A stretch of 64,000 nt of DNA, from NCBI RefSeq assembly GCF_054482595.1, contig NZ_CM137008.1; one strand, given 5' to 3'. Made by a program: the position numbers and the translations under genes. Of the stretch, positions 3,358 through 55,451 are shown in pieces (the first letter of the stretch is position 1; each line of letters starts with the position of its first letter). A model generated the notes under the pieces. It ran no database searches. It was not told the origin of the DNA and saw only the letters and a program-made list of their open reading frames with translations.

Positions 3358-4779
3358 TCAGGCTTTCACATCACTCACTGCACCGACCGGAATATCAGCA
3401 TGAACAGGCTCGGGCGGTACTTTGCGATATTTATCCAGCAGATGAATCTGGATCCTGCGCAGCGTGTCGCCATTGAGGCGATAGAAACGGAAGTAGAGAA
3501 TCAGCGTTACCATGAAAAACAGAGTTGGTAGAGCAATCATAATAAACTGCATACCTAATAGGGCTTGCGTAGACTGTTCAACATTCGGTACATAGCCAAT
3601 CATCCCTAACACAACCGCAATGAAAAAAGCCGCAAAGGCTGAACCGCCCTTCACCACCATAGTCTGCACGGAGTAAGCGATACTTTCACAGCGTACGTGC
3701 AGTTTATATTCACCGTAATCAACGGTATCTGCCACCATGATGACCTGTAATACCCAGAAAAGCGCCGTTCCCACATTCAGCAAAATACCCGCAATCACAA
3801 TGAGGACGACGTTGTGATAGCTCATTAATGCCATTAACAGGAGAACACCACAGCTTAACACCGGAAGAATAGATGCTCCGGCCCATAAAATGCGTCGGGA
3901 TAATGATTTAACTAAGCGTGGGAAGAATACTAACGTCACCAGGTTAGCAGCTCCCGCATACGACAGATAATAGGGGAACAAATCCGCATCACCAATAACA
4001 TATGAGAAATAATAGATAGCAAATCCGGTAATAATGTTGCTGGCTACATTATAAGCAAGAGCCATACCCAAGAGGCATGAAAGCTGATCGTTTTTATAAA
4101 TTAGCGCAACGATGGCTTTAAGTGTCAGATGGCTTCCTTCAGCAGACGGTTGATTGTCTGACGAAAAGACTTCATGCACATTGCGCAAAGTGATGATGGT
4201 TGAAACAATAAAAAAGGCGATTAGTACCAGAGTGAACATCTGAAAGCCAAATCCCCGATCGCCACCGCCGACATAATTAACAAATGGTAGCGTCACACCT
4301 GCCGTAACAAAGCCTGCCAGACTGGCAAAAAAACGCGGATAAGGAACCAGTTGTTCGCGCTCACGTTTATCGAGCGTGATGGTTGGAACCAGCGACCAGA
4401 AGGGAATATCCATAATGGTGTAAGTCATGCCCCAGAGGATGTAGGTCACGCAAACAAAGACAATCTGAGTAGTACCTTCAAACAGATGCGCACTAAAGAG
4501 GAGAAATAAGATTACAGAGTTTGCCAACGTACCGATCAGGATCCAGGGTTTGAACTTACCCCATCGCGATCGCGTAGCATTTACAATCCATCCCATAATC
4601 GGATCGTTAATAGCATCCCAGATCCTCGCCACCAGAAACAAAGTACCGACCAAACCCACAGACAGCCCAACGACATCGGTGTAGTAATACATGAGGTACA
4701 TATACACAATGCCGATCGCAAAATCCTTCCCGAACGCTCCAAATCCATAACTGAGTTTTGTAGTCATTGAAATGCTCAT
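3358..4779 (-). CDS. melB: melibiose:Na+/H+ symporter
   Basis: Translation from the ATG at 4779 begins [20 protein letters not shown] and gives 473 aa; the track ORF starts 8 codons further upstream. Confidence 0.93.
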
Positions 4780-4881
4780 AGGGTATCGGGTCGCTGTTAC
4801 CAACGCCCGCCTTCTGTTATTGGTATCGTCAGAGGTGTGCGCCGGAATAATTCCCCCGGCGCAGTAGCGTTTAGTCGCGTT

Positions 4882-6237
4882 TTAACGGTGCAACCAGCCT
4901 GGCAGCCAGTCGCCGTGGGCGGCAATCAGGTCGTCAACAAGAGCATATATTTCGTCAATGCCCAGCACGGCGGCAGTATGCGGGTCCATCATCGCGGCGT
5001 GGTAAACACGGTCGCGATTTTCCGTAAGAATAGCTTCGGTCAGCAGCGTCTGTACGTTGATGTTGGTTTGCATCAGGGCGGCCAGATGCGAAGGTAGCGT
5101 ACCGACTTTGGTTGGCTGAATGCCATTAGCATCAACCAGACAGGCTACTTCCACGCAACATCCTTGTGGCAGGTTATCAATCAAACCATCGTTACGGACG
5201 TTGCCGTAAATCACACTCGGCTCGCCAGTCCAGATAGCGTTCATGATTGTGCTGGCATATTCCCGTGACGGTTTAATATCAATCCGGGAGGCGTTTTTAT
5301 ACTCCTCCAGCTCTTTATGCCAGTTCGCCAGCTGCTCGACGCAGCGTTTCGGGTACTCATCCAGCGGTACTTTATAACGCTCAATCAAATCCTCACGACC
5401 TGGCTTAATAAACCACGGCGTATATTCGGCAAAATGTTCTGACGATTCCGTGACGAAGTAGCCCAGCTTTTTGAACATTTCGTAGCGCACAATATTCTGG
5501 CAGCGAGTATTACCATGAATATTCGGCTTCGGTGCCTGCCCTGCTTCATAAGCCGCCAGCAGTTCCGGGTAGAGATTCACATAACTGCCGTCGGCGGTTT
5601 TGCGCTCCAGCTCCAGGTAAAACGCCATATGGTTGATACCTGCGCAACGGTAACGCAGCGTAGCTGGGTCGATATTGAGGTCACGCGCCAGCTCTTCCGC
5701 CGTTCCCTGCACCGAATGGCACAGCCCGACCTGTTTGATATGCGGATAGCGGGCATACATCGCCCAGGTATTCATCGCCATTGGGTTAACATAGTTGAGC
5801 ATGGTGGCATCGGGGCAGACTTCCGTCATGTCCTCGCAAATTTGCCACAGATGCGGAATGGTACGTAGCGCGCGCATAATACCGCCCGGCCCCAACGTAT
5901 CGGCAATGGTTTGTTCCAGACCATGCCGCTTACAGACCTCGAAATCAGTCACCGTGCAAGGTTCATAACCGCCAATCTGAAATGCCACCACGACAAAATC
6001 GGCATCCTCTAAGGCTTCTTTCTGTTGGGTGTGGCAGGTGATTTTGCCGCTGGCCCCTGCTGAATCCATCAGCTTACGCACCACAATATGCGACTCTTCC
6101 AGGCGGGTGGGATCAATGTCCATCAGGGCAATATGCGCCGTTTTCAGCGCCTCGCGATGGAACACATCACCAAGAATATTTTTAACGAAAATCGTCGAAC
6201 CAGCGCCGATAAATGTAATTTTGGGTGCAGTCATCAT
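4882..6237 (-). CDS. melA: alpha-galactosidase (NAD/Mn-dependent, GH4)
   Basis: 451 aa; N-terminal GAGS Rossmann motif (KITFIGAGSTIF); upstream of melB. Confidence 0.93.
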   Translation of the reverse strand: MMTAPKITFIGAGSTIFVKNILGDVFHREALKTAHIALMDIDPTRLEESHIVVRKLMDSAGASGKITCHTQQKEALEDADFVVVAFQIGGYEPCTVTDFEVCKRHGLEQTIADTLGPGGIMRALRTIPHLWQICEDMTEVCPDATMLNYVNPMAMNTWAMYARYPHIKQVGLCHSVQGTAEELARDLNIDPATLRYRCAGINHMAFYLELERKTADGSYVNLYPELLAAYEAGQAPKPNIHGNTRCQNIVRYEMFKKLGYFVTESSEHFAEYTPWFIKPGREDLIERYKVPLDEYPKRCVEQLANWHKELEEYKNASRIDIKPSREYASTIMNAIWTGEPSVIYGNVRNDGLIDNLPQGCCVEVACLVDANGIQPTKVGTLPSHLAALMQTNINVQTLLTEAILTENRDRVYHAAMMDPHTAAVLGIDEIYALVDDLIAAHGDWLPGWLHR

Positions 6238-14875: not shown

Positions 14876-15967
14876 ATGCGTTTTCTGCGCCGACCAATAT
14901 CGCTGCGCCAACGGCTGATATTGACCATCGGGGCCATTTTGTTGGTGTTTGAGCTGATCAGCGTCTTCTGGCTATGGCATGAAAGTACCGAGCAGATTCA
15001 GCTGTTTGAGCAGGCGCTACGCGACAATCGCAACAACGATCGCCACATCATGCGTGAGATCCGCGAGGCGGTCGCCAGCCTGATTGTCCCCGGCGTCTTT
15101 ATGGTCAGCCTGACGCTATTTATCTGCTATCAGGCGGTACGCCGCATCACCCGCCCGCTGGCGGAGCTGCAAAAAGAGCTGGAAGCGCGCACCGCCGACA
15201 ACTTAACGCCCATTGCCATTCACAGCGCCACCCTCGAAATCGAAGCGGTGGTTTCGGCGTTAAACGATCTGGTCAGTCGCCTGACCAGCACGCTGGATAA
15301 CGAAAGGTTGTTTACCGCTGACGTCGCGCACGAACTGCGAACGCCACTGGCGGGGGTACGTTTGCATCTGGAACTGCTGGCGAAAACGCATCACATTGAT
15401 GTAGCACCGTTAGTGGCACGGCTTGATCAGATGATGGAGAGCGTCTCCCAGCTGCTGCAACTGGCGCGTGCCGGACAGTCATTTTCTTCCGGTAATTATC
15501 AACATGTAAAACTGCTGGAAGATGTCATTCTCCCCTCGTATGACGAACTCAGTACCATGCTCGACCAGCGACAGCAAACCCTGCTATTGCCAGAGAGCAC
15601 CGCCGACATCACCGTTCAGGGTGATGCAACCCTGCTGCGGATGTTATTGCGAAACCTGGTAGAAAACGCCCATCGTTACAGCCCGCAAGGCAGCAACATT
15701 ATGATTAAGCTGCAAGAAGATGGCGGAGCGGTCATGGCAGTTGAAGATGAAGGACCAGGTATTGATGAGAGTAAATGCGGGGAGTTGAGTAAAGCGTTTG
15801 TACGTATGGACAGCCGTTATGGCGGGATTGGTCTGGGGTTAAGTATTGTCAGCCGCATTACACAGTTGCATCACGGGCAGTTTTTCCTGCAAAACCGGCA
15901 AGAGACTTCTGGCACGCGCGCCTGGATACGGCTGAAGAAAGATCAGTACGTGGCAAACCAGATATAA
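14876..15967 (+). CDS. basS: sensor histidine kinase BasS (PmrB)
   Basis: ~363 aa from ATG at 14876; H-box (ADVAHELRTPL) and HATPase motifs; the track ORF begins at a TTG 3 codons upstream. Confidence 0.9.
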   Translation: MRFLRRPISLRQRLILTIGAILLVFELISVFWLWHESTEQIQLFEQALRDNRNNDRHIMREIREAVASLIVPGVFMVSLTLFICYQAVRRITRPLAELQKELEARTADNLTPIAIHSATLEIEAVVSALNDLVSRLTSTLDNERLFTADVAHELRTPLAGVRLHLELLAKTHHIDVAPLVARLDQMMESVSQLLQLARAGQSFSSGNYQHVKLLEDVILPSYDELSTMLDQRQQTLLLPESTADITVQGDATLLRMLLRNLVENAHRYSPQGSNIMIKLQEDGGAVMAVEDEGPGIDESKCGELSKAFVRMDSRYGGIGLGLSIVSRITQLHHGQFFLQNRQETSGTRAWIRLKKDQYVANQI

Positions 15968-16032
15968 AGAAAGCTGCTGACCACCAGCACGCTGAACACG
16001 GTAGTTAAACTTTCATAAACACGGTTTTTCAT
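15943..16032 (-). CDS. pmrR: small membrane peptide PmrR (29 aa)
   Basis: Reverse strand translates exactly to MKNRVYESLTTVFSVLVVSSFLYIWFATY*; overlaps the last 25 nt of basS on the opposite strand; not in the supplied ORF track. Confidence 0.8.
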   Translation of the reverse strand: MKNRVYESLTTVFSVLVVSSFLYIWFATY

Positions 16033-16146
16033 TGCACTCTCCTCCGTTAACCTGGAGGAGAGTATGCGCGGCAGAGATTAAGTGAACCTTAAGAGTTCAA
16101 TTGTTGGTCTGATAAGACAGCGTCACATCAGGCCATCCGTTTCAGC

Positions 16147-21753: not shown

Positions 21754-21771
21754 TTGTATTGTGATCGGTAA

Positions 21772-22247
<476 letters not shown>

Positions 22248-24720: not shown

Positions 24721-24808
24721 TAGGTCGGATAAGACGCCCCGGCGTCGCATCCGACAATGTGCAGGCGTTGATGCCGGATGCGGTGCAAGCACCTTATCCG
24801 GCCTACAG
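24721..24808. repeat. REP element pair between phnD and phnE
   Basis: ggtcggataagacgccccggcgtcgcatccgaca ... gatgccggatgcggtg...ccttatccggcctaca. Confidence 0.8.
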
Positions 24809-30039: not shown

Positions 30040-30129
<90 letters not shown>

Positions 30130-50904: not shown

Positions 50905-53052
50905 ATGAAAAAAGTCGTCACGGTTTGCCCCTATTGCGCATCAGGTTGCAAAATCAACCTGGTCGTCGATAACGGCAAAATCGTCCGGGCGGAGGCAGCG
51001 CAGGGGAAAACCAACCAGGGTACCCTGTGTCTGAAGGGTTATTATGGCTGGGATTTCATTAACGATACCCAGATCCTGACCCCGCGCCTGAAAACCCCCA
51101 TGATCCGTCGCCAGCGTGGCGGCAAACTCGAACCTGTTTCCTGGGATGAGGCACTGAATTACGTTGCCGAGCGCCTGAGCGCCATCAAAGAGAAGTACGG
51201 TCCGGATGCCATCCAGACGACCGGCTCCTCGCGTGGTACGGGTAACGAAACCAACTATGTAATGCAAAAATTTGCGCGCGCCGTTATTGGTACCAATAAC
51301 GTTGACTGCTGCGCTCGTGTCTGACACGGCCCATCGGTTGCAGGTCTGCACCAATCGGTCGGTAATGGCGCAATGAGCAATGCTATTAACGAAATTGATA
51401 ATACCGATTTAGTGTTCGTTTTCGGGTACAACCCGGCGGATTCCCACCCAATCGTGGCGAATCACGTAATTAACGCTAAACGTAACGGGGCGAAAATTAT
51501 CGTCTGCGATCCGCGCAAAATTGAAACCGCGCGCATTGCTGACATGCACATTGCACTGAAAAACGGCTCGAACATCGCGCTGTTGAATGCGATGGGCCAT
51601 GTCATTATTGAAGAAAATCTGTACGACAAAGCGTTCGTCGCTTCACGTACAGAAGGCTTTGAAGAGTATCGTAAAATCGTTGAAGGCTACACGCCGGAGT
51701 CGGTTGAAGATATCACCGGCGTCAGCGCCAGCGAGATTCGTCAGGCGGCACGGATGTATGCCCAGGCGAAAAGCGCCGCCATCCTGTGGGGCATGGGTGT
51801 AACCCAGTTCTACCAGGGCGTGGAAACCGTGCGTTCTCTGACCAGCCTCGCGATGCTGACCGGTAACCTCGGTAAGCCGCATGCGGGTGTAAACCCGGTT
51901 CGTGGTCAGAACAACGTGCAGGGTGCCTGCGATATGGGCGCGCTGCCGGATACGTATCCGGGATACCAGTACGTGAAAGATCCGGCTAACCGCGAGAAAT
52001 TCGCCAAAGCCTGGGGTGTGGAAAGCCTGCCAGCGCATACCGGCTATCGCATCAGCGAGCTGCCGCACCGCGCAGCGCATGGCGAAGTGCGTGCCGCGTA
52101 CATTATGGGCGAAGATCCGCTGCAAACTGACGCGGAGCTGTCGGCAGTACGTAAAGCCTTTGAAGATCTGGAACTGGTTATCGTTCAGGACATCTTTATG
52201 ACCAAAACCGCGTCGGCGGCGGATGTTATTTTACCGTCAACGTCGTGGGGCGAGCATGAAGGCGTGTTTACTGCGGCTGACCGTGGCTTCCAGCGTTTCT
52301 TCAAAGCAGTTGAACCGAAATGGGATCTGAAAACGGACTGGCAAATCATCAGTGAAATCGCCACCCGTATGGGTTATCCGATGCACTACAACAACACCCA
52401 GGAGATCTGGGATGAGTTGCGTCATCTGTGCCCGGATTTCTACGGTGCGACTTACGAGAAAATGGGCGAACTGGGCTTCATTCAGTGGCCTTGCCGCGAT
52501 ACTTCAGATGCCGATCAGGGGACTTCTTATCTGTTTAAAGAGAAGTTTGATACCCCGAACGGTCTGGCGCAGTTCTTCACCTGCGACTGGGTAGCGCCAA
52601 TCGACAAACTCACCGACGAGTACCCGATGGTACTGTCAACGGTGCGTGAAGTTGGTCACTACTCTTGCCGTTCGATGACCGGTAACTGTGCGGCACTGGC
52701 GGCGCTGGCGGATGAACCTGGCTACGCACAAATCAATACCGAAGACGCCAAACGTCTGGGTATTGAAGATGAGGCATTGGTTTGGGTGCACTCGCGTAAA
52801 GGCAAAATTATCACCCGTGCGCAGGTCAGCGATCGTCCGAACAAAGGGGCGATTTACATGACCTACCAGTGGTGGATTGGTGCCTGTAACGAGCTGGTTA
52901 CCGAAAACTTAAGCCCGATTACGAAAACGCCGGAATACAAATACTGCGCCGTGCGCGTCGAGCCGATCGCCGATCAGCGCGCCGCCGAGCAGTACGTGAT
53001 TGACGAGTACAACAAGTTGAAAACTCGCCTGCGCGAAGCGGCACTGGCGTAA
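50905..53052 (+). CDS. fdhF: formate dehydrogenase H (selenocysteine-containing molybdoenzyme)
   Basis: Track ORFs 50905..51324 and 51373..53052 are in the same frame, separated only by TGA at 51322-51324; reading through gives 715 aa with ...NNVDCCARV-U-HGPSVAGLHQSVGNGAMSNAINE... Confidence 0.93.
51322..51370 (+). other. fdhF: UGA selenocysteine codon plus downstream SECIS hairpin
   Basis: In-frame TGA at 51322-51324 followed immediately by a stem-loop-forming segment (ggttgcag gtct ctgcacc core). Confidence 0.85.
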
Positions 53053-53145: not shown

Positions 53146-53835
53146 ATGAAAAAAATTATCGCATTGATGTTGTTTTTGACATTCTTTGCCCACGCCAACG
53201 ACTCCGAGCCTGGCAGCCAGTATTTAAAGGCAGCAGAGGCCGGGGACCGACGCGCACAATATTTTCTTGCCGACAGCTGGTTTAGCTCCGGCGATTTGAG
53301 CAAAGCCGAATATTGGGCACAGAAAGCCGCCGACAGCGGTGATGCTGATGCCTGCGCGCTGTTGGCGCAGATCAAAATCACCAATCCGGTCAGTCTGGAC
53401 TATCCACAAGCAAAAGTTCTTGCAGAGAAAGCGGCGCAAGCGGGCAGTAAAGAAGGTGAAGTAACGCTGGCGCATATTCTGGTAAATACTCAAGCGGGCA
53501 AACCGGATTATCCAAAGGCGATTTCGCTGTTAGAAAACGCCTCGGAAGATCTGGAGAACGACTCTGCCGTCGATGCCCAAATGCTGCTTGGTTTGATTTA
53601 CGCCAACGGCGTGGGCATTAAGGCCGACGATGACAAGGCAACCTGGTATTTCAAACGCAGCTCTGCAATTTCCCGAACCGGTTATTCCGAGTACTGGGCG
53701 GGAATGATGTTCTTAAACGGTGAAGAAGGTTTTATCGAGAAGAATAAACAAAAGGCGCTGCACTGGTTGAACCTGAGCTGTATGGAAGGGTTTGATACCG
53801 GGTGTGAAGAGTTTGAAAAATTAACCAACGGTTAA
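53146..53835 (+). CDS. yjcO: Sel1-like repeat (TPR-like) periplasmic protein
   Basis: 229 aa; signal peptide; repeated A-x-x-W-Y-x-K-A-A-x-x-G motifs. Confidence 0.8.
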   Translation: MKKIIALMLFLTFFAHANDSEPGSQYLKAAEAGDRRAQYFLADSWFSSGDLSKAEYWAQKAADSGDADACALLAQIKITNPVSLDYPQAKVLAEKAAQAGSKEGEVTLAHILVNTQAGKPDYPKAISLLENASEDLENDSAVDAQMLLGLIYANGVGIKADDDKATWYFKRSSAISRTGYSEYWAGMMFLNGEEGFIEKNKQKALHWLNLSCMEGFDTGCEEFEKLTNG

Positions 53836-53837
53836 GG

Positions 53838-54100
53838 TAGGCCTGATAAGACGCGTTAAGCGTCGCATCAGGCGTTGATGTCGGATGCGGCGTAAACGCC
53901 TTATCCGACCTACAAAATCACGCTAAATCAGGCTATTGCGCTGTCTGGCGTAGGCCTGATAAGACGCGGCAAGCGTCGCATCAGGCGTTGATGTCGGATG
54001 CGGCGTAAACGCCTTATCCGACCTACAAAATCACGCTAAATCAGGCTATTGCGCTGTCTGGCGTAGGCCTGATAAGACGCACCAGCGTCGCATCAGGCAT
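53838..54100. repeat. BIME/REP array, ~2.3 units of ~112-115 bp
   Basis: ggcctgataagacgcg...cgtcgcatcaggcg...gatgtcggatgcggcgtaaacgccttatccgacctacaaa units starting at about 53838, 53953 and 54065. Confidence 0.9.
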
Positions 54101-54137
54101 CCACACATTGCCGGGGGATAACCCCGGCAATCTTCAA

Positions 54138-55451
54138 TTATTGATCCGCAGTTTTATCAAATTTGCCCAGCACTTCACGCTCATAAGCCAGCGCCTTTTT
54201 GCGGTCAAATTTGTGTTCCCACTTGGCAATCACCAGCACCGCCAGCGCATTACCCACCACGTTCAGCGCAGTACGCGCCATGTCGAGGATACGGTCAACA
54301 CCGGCAATAAACGCCAGACCTTCCAGCGGAATACCTACGCTACCCAGCGTTGCCAGCAACACCACAAACGACACGCCAGGCACGCCAGCAATCCCTTTCG
54401 AGGTCACCATCAGCGTCAGCACCAGAATGATTTCCTGCCAGATGGACAGGTCAATGCCATACAGCTGAGCGATGAAAATAGCGGCAATACTTTGGTACAG
54501 CGTCGAACCATCAAGGTTAAAAGAGTAACCGGTTGGCACCACGAAGCTGGTGATCGACGCCGGTGCTCCGTAGGCTTCCATCTTCTCAATAATTCGCGGC
54601 AGTACGCTTTCAGAGCTGGCAGTGGAGTACGCCAGAATCAGCTCATCTTTCAGAATACGAATCAGGATCCAGACGCTTAACCCGCACAGGTGCGCCACAA
54701 TGCCCAGCACTACCAGCGCGAAGAACAGAATGGCGAAATGCACCAGCAGCACCAGTTTCGCCAGTGGCCACAGAGAAGAGAAACCAAAGTTAGCCACCGT
54801 CACCGCAATCAGCGCAAACACACCCACCGGCGCATAACGCATCACCATGTGAGTCACTTTAAACATGGTTTCAGAGATGGAGCGGAACACGGTCACCAGC
54901 GGTTCACGATGCGTCGCGGGCAGGGAAGAAAGCCCCAGACCAAACAGCACCGAGAAGAAGATGATCGGCAGCATTTCGCCTTTCGCCATCGACGCCACAA
55001 TGTTCGTCGGCACCAGCGACAAAATCGTGCCCATAATGCCGTGGGAACTGCTTTGTACCGCTTCCGTAGTGCTCTGATATTTCGAGATATCGACGGTCGC
55101 CAGCTGCGACATATCCACCCCGGCACCGGGCTGGAAGACGTTCGCCAGAGTGATCCCCAAAATGATGGCGACGGTGGTGATCACCTCGAAGTAGATAATG
55201 GTTTTCGCGCCAATACGCCCGAGCTGTTTGGCATCACCAACACCCGCGATACCCACCACCAGCGTGGAGATCACAATCGGCACAACAATCATTTTGATCA
55301 AATGGATGAAGATATCACCCGCCGGAGAGAGCAAATTGACGACCAGCCAGTCGCGGCTGTCGCTATGGTAGTGCAGGTAGCTTCCCAGGAGAATGCCCAG
55401 CACCATAGCAAACAGAATCTGCCAGGCCAGGCTGAATTTTATATTTTTCAT
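54138..55451 (-). CDS. gltP: glutamate/aspartate:proton symporter
   Basis: 437 aa DAACS-family transporter. Confidence 0.92.
   Translation of the reverse strand: MKNIKFSLAWQILFAMVLGILLGSYLHYHSDSRDWLVVNLLSPAGDIFIHLIKMIVVPIVISTLVVGIAGVGDAKQLGRIGAKTIIYFEVITTVAIILGITLANVFQPGAGVDMSQLATVDISKYQSTTEAVQSSSHGIMGTILSLVPTNIVASMAKGEMLPIIFFSVLFGLGLSSLPATHREPLVTVFRSISETMFKVTHMVMRYAPVGVFALIAVTVANFGFSSLWPLAKLVLLVHFAILFFALVVLGIVAHLCGLSVWILIRILKDELILAYSTASSESVLPRIIEKMEAYGAPASITSFVVPTGYSFNLDGSTLYQSIAAIFIAQLYGIDLSIWQEIILVLTLMVTSKGIAGVPGVSFVVLLATLGSVGIPLEGLAFIAGVDRILDMARTALNVVGNALAVLVIAKWEHKFDRKKALAYEREVLGKFDKTADQ

What the first reader, a model, noticed from the sequence alone, without database searches (positions are those of the whole stretch)
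53838..54100. Second BIME array between yjcO and gltP with ~112-115 bp period
Roughly 2.3 tandem units of a REP pair plus spacer (...aatcacgctaaatcaggctattgcgctgtctggcg...) lie between the ends of convergent yjcO and gltP. The array probably acts as a bidirectional termination and mRNA-stabilising region and is another likely site of copy-number variation.
Basis: seen in the sequence. Interest (0 to 1): 0.25.

Follow-up and report, generated by a model that had tools for sequence, protein, structure and literature searches.

The report
Known BIME-2 repeat array, gltP–yjcO
This is an ordinary, already catalogued E. coli REP/BIME-2 repeat array lying between the ends of two convergent genes; as is usual for this class, the number of repeats differs widely between strains, and even between laboratory K-12 lines.

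Summary
Window 53837-54098 holds 2.3 tandem copies of a 113-bp unit (96% match) between convergent yjcO (+) and gltP (-). Each unit is [z2 REP, 6-nt linker, inverted y REP, 36-nt tail-to-tail linker]. A lone z2 REP closes the array, followed by a unique GC hairpin next to the gltP stop. This is the canonical BIME-2 architecture. The same locus in MG1655 was used as substrate "B319 (gltP-yjcO)" by Ton-Hoang et al. 2012, so it is already known.

Copy-number variation is confirmed. Alleles range from a lone z2 REP to 7 units across E. coli. K-12 lines carry 5 (MG1655), 4 (W3110, BW25113, C600, DH5alpha) or 2 (MC1061) units. One strain has IS1397 in a REP loop.

Function is inferred, not shown. 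No hairpin-plus-U terminator exists in the spacer. All REPs fold as -17 to -22 kcal/mol RNA hairpins on both strands. Published +/-bicyclomycin data place a Rho termination region on the gltP-sense strand about 110 nt beyond the array, in a C>G stretch. The likeliest role is a 3' hairpin barrier with Rho termination downstream. Rfam naRNA4 hits only reflect REP modules shared with REP325. Interest is low.

The parts
53146..53835 (+). yjcO (Sel1-repeat protein) CDS. The stop codon TAA is at 53833-53835. The first REP begins 2 nt after the stop, and its stem begins 6 nt after it.
   Evidence: ORF list; RefSeq annotation of the 100%-identical strain XH990; coordinates checked.
53837..53873 (+). 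Unit 1, z2-type REP (5' GTAG, arms 53841-53854 and 53860-53873, loop GTTAA).
   Evidence: Inverted repeat I6; aligns with the Z2 module of REP325; RNA hairpin -20.4 (+ strand) and -21.3 (- strand) kcal/mol.
53874..53879 (+). Unit 1, short head-to-head linker (S), GTTGAT.
   Evidence: Sequence; 6 nt against 13 nt in REP325.
53880..53913 (+). Unit 1, inverted y-type REP (arms 53880-53893 and 53896-53909, then CTAC). It carries a compensated stem pair (T...A) where the REP325 Y module has C...G.
   Evidence: Inverted repeat I13; alignment; RNA hairpin -19.2 and -17.4 kcal/mol.
53914..53949 (+). Unit 1, 36-nt tail-to-tail linker AAAATCACGCTAAATCAGGCTATTGCGCTGTCTGGC, which is private to this locus.
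   Evidence: The number of linker copies per genome equals the unit count at this locus in K-12 lines and BL21. Elsewhere it was found only at the same locus in two other Escherichia species.
53950..54062 (+). Unit 2: z2 REP 53950-53986 (loop GGCAA), S linker 53987-53992, y iREP 53993-54026, tail-to-tail linker 54027-54062.
54063..54098 (+). Terminal lone z2 REP (loop ACCA). In about 40% of sampled genomes this is the only REP present at the locus.
   Evidence: Inverted repeat I10; lone-z2 alleles.
54107..54131 (.). Unique perfect GC-rich hairpin (10-bp stem, 5-nt loop), 6 nt downstream of the gltP stop. It is not a REP and has no adequate U-tract on either strand.
   Evidence: Inverted repeat I15; -19.4 and -17.9 kcal/mol; not called as a terminator; present with small loop and stem variants in all alleles examined.
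54138..55451 (-). gltP (glutamate/aspartate:proton symporter) CDS, with its stop codon at 54138-54140.
53700..53857 (-). C>G (rut-like) stretch on the gltP-sense RNA immediately downstream of the array (C/G 2.3-2.8). The published MG1655 Rho-score peak (4296545, + strand) maps to about window 53726.
   Evidence: Composition; Adams et al. 2021 Supplementary file 2; coordinate mapping through the yjcO end at 4296436.

Best explanation
The feature is the E. coli BIME-2 (REP) array in the 3' spacer between convergent yjcO and gltP. In this strain it has two full 113-bp units [z2 REP, 6-nt S linker, inverted y REP, 36-nt tail-to-tail linker] plus a terminal z2 REP.

Shown here: the identity and architecture, the locus-private linker, and extensive change in whole-unit copy number between strains.

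Inferred (a): units are gained and lost by in-register unequal recombination or replication slippage between the 113-bp direct repeats, possibly helped by the REP-associated transposase TnpA_REP.

Inferred (b): both mRNAs run into the array, where five REP hairpins (-17 to -22 kcal/mol each) plus the gltP-proximal GC hairpin block 3'-to-5' exonucleases and slow RNA polymerase. Real termination is Rho-dependent, in the untranslated C>G RNA just beyond the array. The array therefore defines stable 3' ends rather than acting as a self-sufficient bidirectional terminator.

Inferred (c): extra units beyond the terminal z2 REP are probably close to neutral.
For: Architecture. The Y and Z2 modules are the same as in the literature-defined Y/Z2 array REP325 in the same window (Qian 2015). 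The BIME-2 definition (z2 + y, tandem, short S linker, flanking s/l/r linker, copy number variable between strains) is taken from Ton-Hoang 2012, which also used 'B319, gltP-yjcO' of MG1655 as a substrate cleaved by TnpA_REP at four linker sites.

Copy number: MG1655 has 5.3 copies. A flank-only BLAST sample of 58 genomes gives inserts of 40/41 (23 genomes), 110 (2), 140 (3), 154 (1), 265-267 (7), 379-380 (7), 451 (6), 492-493 (7) and 790-791 (2) bp. The linker is present in 2590 of 5426 genomes, at 1-6 copies. Genomes whose flanks are 100% identical to K-12 carry 0, 2, 4 or 5 full units. Unit strings are MG1655 A'BBAB, W3110/Keio ABAB and MC1061 AB, so the changes are whole units of 113 or 226 bp.

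RNA: both strands fold with z = -8.9 and -9.9 against shuffles. There is no hairpin-plus-U terminator in the spacer.

Rho: Adams 2021 lists MG1655 4296545 (+), antisense to yjcO. Coverage downstream rises from 22 to 404 reads with bicyclomycin; Rho score 10.8, p = 2.8e-17. C/G is 2.3-2.8 just beyond the array on that strand.

Class literature: REP325 acts as a partly Rho-dependent terminator plus stabiliser, and convergent gene pairs with a REP are more highly expressed. Rho-terminated transcripts are trimmed back to stable stem-loops, a quarter of which are REPs.
Against: No 3'-end map, half-life measurement or deletion phenotype exists for this locus. gltP is absent from the Term-seq tables I could read, probably because reads in the repeats map to several places.

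The Rho score uses 800-nt windows, so termination could lie inside the array rather than beyond it. I found nothing for the yjcO-sense direction.

Genome-wide, terminal REPs show no longer mRNA half-lives.

About 40% of sampled genomes have only the lone z2 REP, so any function cannot require the array.

Some copy-number differences, such as one 'MG1655' assembly with 4 units, could be assembly errors.
Confidence: 0.85

Rival explanations
1. The primary role is at the DNA level. The BIME-2 array is a strong, sequence-specified DNA gyrase binding and cleavage site, mainly at the y REPs, that handles supercoiling between two convergent transcription units or contributes to chromosome organisation. 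This is not exclusive with the RNA-level model.
For: Topo-Seq shows gyrase cleavage sites significantly over-represented in BIME-2 elements. Cleavage prefers y over z2 REPs, and the signal rises rather than falls when transcription is blocked (Sutormin 2019). That study cites Espeli and Boccard 1997 and Yang and Ames 1988. The array here has two y REPs with the short S linker typical of BIME-2 and sits where convergent transcription would build up positive supercoils.
Against: Only a subset of BIME-2 elements carry cleavage sites. This locus is not named among the prominent ones, and I could not retrieve cleavage sites for it because the table is truncated. About 40% of genomes lack any y REP here, so a gyrase site at this position is dispensable.
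Confidence: 0.3
2. The array is essentially a selfish or neutral repeat (a REP doublet of REPIN type) maintained and amplified by the REP-associated tyrosine transposase and by recombination. On this view it has no locus-specific function beyond that of any stable hairpin.
For: TnpA_REP cleaves the gltP-yjcO BIME at four linker sites in vitro and promotes BIME recombination. Copy number varies among genomes with identical flanks and among K-12 laboratory lines, with no known phenotype. Alleles include truncated REPs and linker deletions in the O157 and B2 types. IS1397 can sit in the array.
Against: At least one REP is retained next to the gltP-proximal hairpin in every allele examined, and the array occupies the same locus in Escherichia sp. 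E1V33 and E. whittamii. The REP stems keep their pairing, including a compensated pair in the y stem. The class-level expression effects argue for some function.
Confidence: 0.3
3. The first z2 REP, whose stem starts 6 nt after the yjcO stop codon, lowers YjcO synthesis. It would do so by stalling terminating ribosomes and triggering tmRNA trans-translation. This REP-within-15-nt-of-a-stop mechanism comes from Liang, Rudd and Deutscher, Mol Cell 2015, which I cite from memory because the paper is not held in the library.
For: The geometry is shown directly: stop codon at 53833-53835, GTAG at 53837, stem from 53841, hairpin -20.4 kcal/mol. The same junction (TAA-G-GTAGG or TAA-G-ATAGG) is kept in all non-B2 alleles.
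Against: I could not check whether yjcO was among the genes they tested. B2-type alleles have a 5'-truncated first z2 REP that cannot form the hairpin, so the arrangement is not conserved across the species.
Confidence: 0.15
4. The units encode naRNA4-like nucleoid-associated small RNAs that bind HU and condense the chromosome, as the Rfam RF02564 hits above the gathering score would suggest.
For: Rfam naRNA4 hits on the gltP-sense strand score 77.1 and 75.2 bits against a gathering score of 59.5. The strand is transcribed at least as read-through. Qian 2015 proposed that REP325-homologous sequences could share the role.
Against: The hits are explained by shared Y and Z2 modules. The unit is 71 nt rather than 77 nt, with a 6-nt instead of a 13-nt inter-hairpin linker, and it scores 25-35 bits below the REP325 units. 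A 2026 study found no stable HU-naRNA4-cruciform complex, no change in nucleoid volume on deleting or over-expressing REP325, and no HU-dependent REP-REP contacts.
Confidence: 0.04

Closest known systems
BIME-2 family of bacterial interspersed mosaic elements (Gilson, Bachellier, Hofnung; summarised in Ton-Hoang et al. 2012, PMC3333891), specifically the MG1655 gltP-yjcO BIME ('B319')
   Same: It has y and z2 REPs in alternating orientation, a short head-to-head S linker, a longer tail-to-tail linker, tandem repetition, an extragenic 3' location, and a copy number that differs between strains. It is the same locus as B319, and the units are near-identical to those of MG1655.
   Different: Only the allele differs. 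This strain has 2 full units (variants GTTAA/CGTAAA and GGCAA/CGTAAA) and a terminal z2 with loop ACCA, against 5 units and a terminal GGCAA loop in MG1655.
REP325 / naRNA4 (Rfam RF02564), between yjdM and yjdN; in this window at 21768-22247
   Same: It is a BIME-2-type tandem array of Y and Z2 hairpins. Units of the gltP-yjcO array score above the Rfam gathering threshold in the gltP-sense orientation.
   Different: The period is 100 rather than 113 nt, the head-to-head linker is 13 rather than 6 nt, and the tail-to-tail linker is 17 rather than 36 nt with an unrelated sequence. REP325 lies between tandem genes, not convergent ones. The y stem here has a compensated T-A pair in place of C-G.
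BIME-1 / RIP / RIB elements (y + z1 with the long L linker carrying an IHF site)
   Same: They are built from REP modules and lie at 3' ends of transcription units.
   Different: BIME-1 elements are single copy, use z1 rather than z2, and have a long L linker with an IHF site. Here the linker is only 6 nt and the REP is z2, so the array is not a BIME-1.
Rho-dependent 3' ends protected by stable stem-loops (Peters 2012; Dar and Sorek 2018, PMC6061677)
   Same: There are stable hairpins without a U-tract, a C>G stretch immediately downstream, and bicyclomycin-sensitive read-through on the gltP-sense strand.
   Different: The hairpin module here is a multi-copy repeat array rather than a single stem-loop. 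The exact 3' end at this locus is not mapped.
REPIN/RAYT systems (REP doublets mobilised by REP-associated tyrosine transposases)
   Same: An inverted REP pair is the repeating unit, and the E. coli RAYT (TnpA_REP) cleaves this very BIME in vitro.
   Different: The variation seen here is local tandem copy-number change at one locus with a locus-private linker, not dispersal to new loci.

Membership tests
BIME-2 | Built from y-type and z2-type REPs (palindromic units) | tested here: met
   The palindromes align module for module with the Y and Z2 hairpins of REP325, which the literature defines as Y/Z2. The diagnostic CCGGAT-type (here TCGGAT) and CCTGAT cores are present.
BIME-2 | REP and inverted REP alternate, separated by a short head-to-head linker (S) | tested here: met
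   GTAG-z2, then GTTGAT (6 nt), then y-CTAC in each unit.
BIME-2 | Occurs as tandem copies, with copies at one locus nearly identical | tested here: met
   2.3 copies at 96-98% identity; 5.3 copies in MG1655.
BIME-2 | Tail-to-tail flanking linker of type s, l or r | tested here: inconclusive
   A 36-nt tail-to-tail linker is present. By length it is probably 'l'. Ton-Hoang notes that BIME-2 linkers vary in length and sequence.
BIME-2 | [quoted passage not shown] | tested here: met
   0.3 to about 7 units.
BIME-2 | Bound and cleaved by DNA gyrase in vivo | not testable with these tools
   Class-level evidence only; locus-specific cleavage sites were not retrievable.
BIME-1 (RIP/RIB) | z1 + y pair separated by the long L linker with an IHF site; single copy | tested here: not met
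   The linker is 6 nt, the REP is z2 length (37 nt), and the element is tandemly repeated.
naRNA4 (Rfam RF02564) | Covariance-model score at or above the gathering threshold (59.5 bits) | tested here: met
   77.1 and 75.2 bits on the - strand; the third, partial unit scores 50.4 and the + strand 46-49, all below threshold.
naRNA4 (Rfam RF02564) | 77-nt Y-linker-Z2 unit as in REP325, processed to a discrete HU-binding RNA | tested here: not met
   The unit is 71 nt, with 7 nt of the linker missing. Processing and HU binding cannot be tested here, and the HU-compaction role itself is disputed.
Intrinsic (Rho-independent) bidirectional terminator | GC-rich hairpin followed by a U-tract on each strand | tested here: not met
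   No terminator-like site was called between 53836 and 54137 on either strand. The GC hairpin at 54107-54131 is followed by GUGUGG on the gltP-sense strand and CUUCAAUU on the yjcO-sense strand.
REP-at-stop-codon translational attenuation (Liang, Rudd and Deutscher 2015; from memory) | REP hairpin within 15 nt of the termination codon | tested here: met
   For yjcO, the stem starts 6 nt after TAA. For gltP, the nearest REP is 40 nt away, with the unique GC hairpin 6 nt away.
REP-at-stop-codon translational attenuation (Liang, Rudd and Deutscher 2015; from memory) | Ribosome stalling, mRNA cleavage and tmRNA tagging of the upstream protein | not testable with these tools
   The paper is not held, and there are no data for YjcO.

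The most novel reading that the evidence does not exclude
Array length is a fast-mutating tuner, in the manner of a contingency locus. Whole-unit gains and losses occur even between K-12 laboratory lines. They would change how much gltP-sense and yjcO-sense transcription collides, reaches Rho, or is stabilised, and/or how much gyrase is recruited. Strains would then differ heritably in glutamate/aspartate uptake or YjcO level without any coding change.
Probability: 0.06. Interest if true: 0.45.

Novelty: already known. Interest (0 to 1): 0.1.

Why it matters
It matters little as a discovery. REP/BIME-2 arrays have been described since the 1980s-90s, and this very locus has been used as a biochemical substrate.

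There are three practical points. (1) Rfam annotates such arrays as 'naRNA4', which over-interprets shared REP modules. (2) The array is a hypervariable marker that differs among K-12 stocks and can be collapsed or mis-sized in assemblies. (3) It is a clean natural allelic series (0.3, 1.3, 2.3, 3.3, 4.3 and 5.3 units with identical flanks) that could be used to test how the number of REP hairpins affects Rho-dependent termination, mRNA 3'-end stability and gyrase recruitment between convergent genes.

Tried and rejected
Chance or artefact: rejected by the periodicity test against shuffles, an exact match to a complete genome, and presence of the same unit in thousands of genomes.

Canonical intrinsic terminator in the spacer: scanned and none found.

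Hidden small ORF in the array: only 20-31-aa ORFs, antisense or overlapping hairpins, none credible.

naRNA4 gene: rejected as a specific identification.

BIME-1: rejected (6-nt linker, z2 REP).

Dispersed family defined by the 36-nt linker: rejected, because the linker is private to this locus.

Searches that led nowhere:
- Ton-Hoang supplements are not held.
- Liang/Deutscher 2015, Macvanin 2012, Gilson 1991 and Hayashi 2006 are not held.
- The supplements of the 2026 REP preprint mention gltP and yjcO only in differential-expression tables.
- The Sutormin cleavage-site tables are truncated, with no entry found near the locus.
- Dar and Sorek supplements are not held.

I tried to confirm that 'B319' equals EcoCyc REP319 by counting REP clusters between this array and REP325. 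Only two clear clusters were seen (24743-24785 and 30047-30125), so the numbering link is unproven.

Variable positions among 19 distinct units are not clearly confined to unpaired positions (14 of 74 paired against 12 of 43 unpaired columns). The commonest variants do lie in the z2 loop, the y loop-closing pair and the first base of the S linker.

Full report
OBSERVATION. Tandem Repeats Finder reports 53837-54098 with period 113, 2.3 copies, 96% matches and score 489. The repeat finder gives two 113-nt copies at 98% identity and a third partial copy. In a self-alignment of 53800-54150, lag 113 stands alone at 0.655 identity. The next-best lag is 0.32, and the maximum over 1000 shuffles is 0.392. 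The flanking ORFs are yjcO (53146-53835, +) and gltP (54138-55451, -). They are convergent and are so named in the RefSeq annotation of strain XH990, to which the window is 100% identical.

ANATOMY. Each unit has four parts.
- A z2-type REP: GTAG plus 14-nt arms around a 5-nt loop, 37 nt in all.
- A 6-nt head-to-head linker, GTTGAT.
- An inverted y-type REP ending in CTAC, 34 nt.
- A 36-nt tail-to-tail linker.

Two full units (53837-53949 and 53950-54062) are followed by a lone z2 REP (54063-54098), 8 unique bases, and a perfect 10-bp GC hairpin (54107-54131) that ends 6 nt from the gltP stop codon. The yjcO stop codon (53833-53835) is followed after one base by the GTAG of the first REP.

I aligned the units, read on the minus strand, with the five units of REP325. 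REP325 lies in the same window at 21768-22247 and is defined in the literature as a Y/Z2 array. The Y and Z2 modules are the same. There is one compensated stem pair in Y and a head-to-head linker shorter by 7 nt.

Ton-Hoang et al. define BIME-2 as follows: z2 + y, REP and inverted REP separated by a short S linker, flanked by s, l or r linkers, tandemly repeated, and with copy number variable between strains. The array meets this definition. The same paper used 'B319', a partial BIME from the MG1655 gltP-yjcO region, as a substrate that TnpA_REP cleaves at four linker sites. The element is therefore already known at this exact locus.

COPY-NUMBER VARIATION. MG1655 has a 641-bp spacer carrying 5.3 copies of the same unit.

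I searched 5,426 complete E. coli genomes with a query made only of the two flanks and listed 58 evenly spaced hits. The insert lengths were discrete:
- 40/41 bp, a lone z2 REP: 23 genomes.
- 110 bp: 2 genomes.
- 140 bp: 3 genomes.
- 154 bp: 1 genome.
- 265-267 bp, as in the window: 7 genomes.
- 379-380 bp: 7 genomes.
- 451 bp: 6 genomes.
- 492-493 bp: 7 genomes.
- 790-791 bp: 2 genomes.

Fetched representatives resolve into whole modules.
- Arrays of 1, 2, 3, 4 or 5 full units followed by the terminal z2 REP.
- An O157:H7 allele with a 12-nt deletion in the linker (101-nt unit).
- B2-type alleles (for example NC101, with 7 units) that have a 5'-truncated first z2 and no terminal z2.

The 36-nt linker occurs in 2590 of 5426 genomes, at 1-6 copies with a median of 2. 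In K-12 lines and BL21 the number of linker copies equals the number of full units at this locus. The linker is therefore private to this locus.

Among 100,044 species-representative genomes, a degenerate 21-nt core of the linker occurs in only three records. Two are Escherichia sp. E1V33 (5.0 copies) and E. whittamii (period 117, 1.9 copies), both at the same yjcO-gltP locus. The third is a 240-bp contig at 0.5x coverage in a myxobacterial assembly, which consists of pure K-12-type units and is surely contamination.

Change is fast relative to point mutation. Among 60 genomes whose 800 bp of flanks are 100% identical to MG1655, 25 have the lone z2, 1 has two units, 10 have four and 24 have five. 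Twenty of the 24 five-unit genomes belong to one related laboratory strain set.

Unit strings were read directly for MG1655 (A'BBAB), W3110 and a Keio strain (ABAB), MC1061 (AB) and BL21 (ABB). C600, J53, DH5alpha and ER1709 were placed in the four-unit class from insert length alone. The differences are whole units of 113 or 226 bp. That is what in-register unequal recombination or slippage between direct repeats would produce. This mechanism is an inference, and TnpA_REP activity is an alternative. Some differences, such as one 'MG1655' assembly with four units, could be assembly errors.

FUNCTION. Nothing in the spacer matches a hairpin-plus-U-tract terminator on either strand. As RNA, every REP folds at -17 to -22 kcal/mol on both strands, and the GC hairpin folds at -18 to -19. 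The whole spacer folds far better than shuffled sequence, with z = -8.9 and -9.9.

I found one locus-specific data set. Adams et al. 2021 list Rho termination regions from DirectRNA-seq with and without bicyclomycin. One entry is MG1655 position 4296545 on the + strand (gltP sense), classed as antisense to yjcO. Coverage in the 800 nt downstream rises from 22 to 404 reads with the Rho inhibitor, while upstream coverage goes from 44 to 75. The Rho score is 10.8 and p = 2.8e-17. yjcO ends at 4296436, so this point lies about 110 nt beyond the array, at roughly window 53726.

In the window, the gltP-sense RNA just beyond the array is C-rich and G-poor, with C/G of 2.3-2.8 over 53857-53700. The equivalent stretch for the yjcO-sense RNA has C/G of 1.5-2.1.

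These results fit the published picture for the class. Rho terminates in untranslated RNA downstream, and exonucleases trim back to a stable stem-loop, which is often a REP. REP325 acts both as a partly Rho-dependent terminator and as a stabiliser, and convergent gene pairs with a REP are more highly expressed.

My best reading is therefore that the array forms a 3' hairpin barrier and pause region for both mRNAs, with Rho doing the actual termination. It is not a self-sufficient bidirectional terminator. This remains an inference, for four reasons.
- No 3' ends or half-lives are known for this locus.
- There are no data for the yjcO direction.
- Genome-wide, terminal REPs do not lengthen half-lives.
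- About 40% of genomes manage with a single REP.

RIVALS.
(1) Gyrase site. Cleavage sites are over-represented in BIME-2 elements, mainly at y REPs, and independently of transcription. This is plausible and not exclusive with the RNA model. I could not retrieve locus-specific data, and many strains have no y REP at this locus.
(2) Selfish or neutral repeat. This is supported by the ease of gain and loss, by decayed alleles, and by an IS1397 inserted in the loop of the terminal z2 REP of E. coli O78 strain 3, with a 3-bp CCA duplication.
(3) Translational attenuation of yjcO by a REP within 15 nt of its stop codon. The geometry is met. The mechanism is recalled from Liang, Rudd and Deutscher 2015, which I could not read.
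(4) naRNA4-like HU-binding RNA. Two units score 77.1 and 75.2 bits on the gltP-sense strand, against a gathering score of 59.5. The match is explained by shared modules, and the naRNA4-HU compaction model itself was not reproduced in 2026.

VERDICT. The prediction of copy-number variation is right and is now documented. The functional statement is reasonable but needs the Rho qualification and remains untested at this locus. The element is a known BIME-2 at a known locus, so novelty is 'already known' and interest is low.

Noticed in passing
L001 (MG1655 NC_000913.3), L016 (W3110), L011 (Keio JW5503), L017 (MC1061); one search hits: K-12 laboratory lines differ at this array. The MG1655 reference has 5 full units (A'BBAB, with a 2-nt deletion in the first y loop). 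W3110 and a BW25113 derivative (Keio JW5503) have 4 by sequence (ABAB), and C600, J53, DH5alpha and ER1709 fall in the 4-unit class by insert length. MC1061 has 2 (AB). One assembly labelled MG1655 (NZ_CP032667.1) has 4. This is either real stock-to-stock change or assembly error.
   Followed up: partly
L012 (E. coli O78 strain 3, NZ_CP084096.1), locus 3588-4936: An IS1397-family IS3 element is inserted in the loop of the terminal z2 REP of the array (...GACGCACCA|IS|CCAGCGTC...), with a 3-bp CCA target duplication. This matches the known preference of IS1397 for BIME palindromic units.
   Followed up: partly
L013 (NZ_JAAIYA010000177.1, Pyxidicoccus caerfyrddinensis assembly): A 240-bp contig at 0.53x coverage consists entirely of K-12-type 'B' units of this array. 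It is almost certainly E. coli (prey or laboratory strain) contamination in a myxobacterial genome assembly.
   Followed up: partly
L014 7365-7930 (Escherichia sp. E1V33); L015 5991-6218 (E. whittamii): The same yjcO-gltP spacer carries the same BIME-2 array in two other Escherichia species: 5.0 copies of 113 bp, and 1.9 copies of a 117-bp unit with a longer head-to-head linker. The array at this locus therefore predates E. coli diversification.
   Followed up: partly
window 21768-22247 (+) and 24723-24803 (-): REP325, the naRNA4 type locus, is present with 4.8 copies of a 100-bp unit (K-12 is described with six). A further Y/Z-type REP pair at 24723-24803 also exceeds the Rfam naRNA4 gathering score (69.1 bits). 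This shows that the model captures generic REP pairs.
   Followed up: partly
window 15936-16101 (-) and 51317-51371 (+): Rfam gathering-level hits to the enterobacterial sRNA STnc630 (177 bits) and to the SECIS element just upstream of the ORF at 51373-53052, which is the selenocysteine region of fdhF.
   Followed up: no
window 54107-54131: The unique GC hairpin next to the gltP stop varies between strains in loop and stem length (GGGGGATAACCCC, GGGTGGATATCCCC, GGGTGGATATCCCCCC) but is always retained. It has no U-tract on either strand, so it is more likely a 3'-end protective stem-loop for gltP than an intrinsic terminator.
   Followed up: partly
L005, L008, L010 (B2-type alleles, e.g. NC101): Phylogroup-B2-like alleles have a 5'-truncated first z2 REP (GGTAGGCGCAGCAAACGTCGCATCAGGC). 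They also lack the terminal z2 REP, the last linker being fused directly to ...CAGGCATCCACAC. This gives insert lengths (110, 451, 790 bp) that are out of register with the other series.
   Followed up: partly
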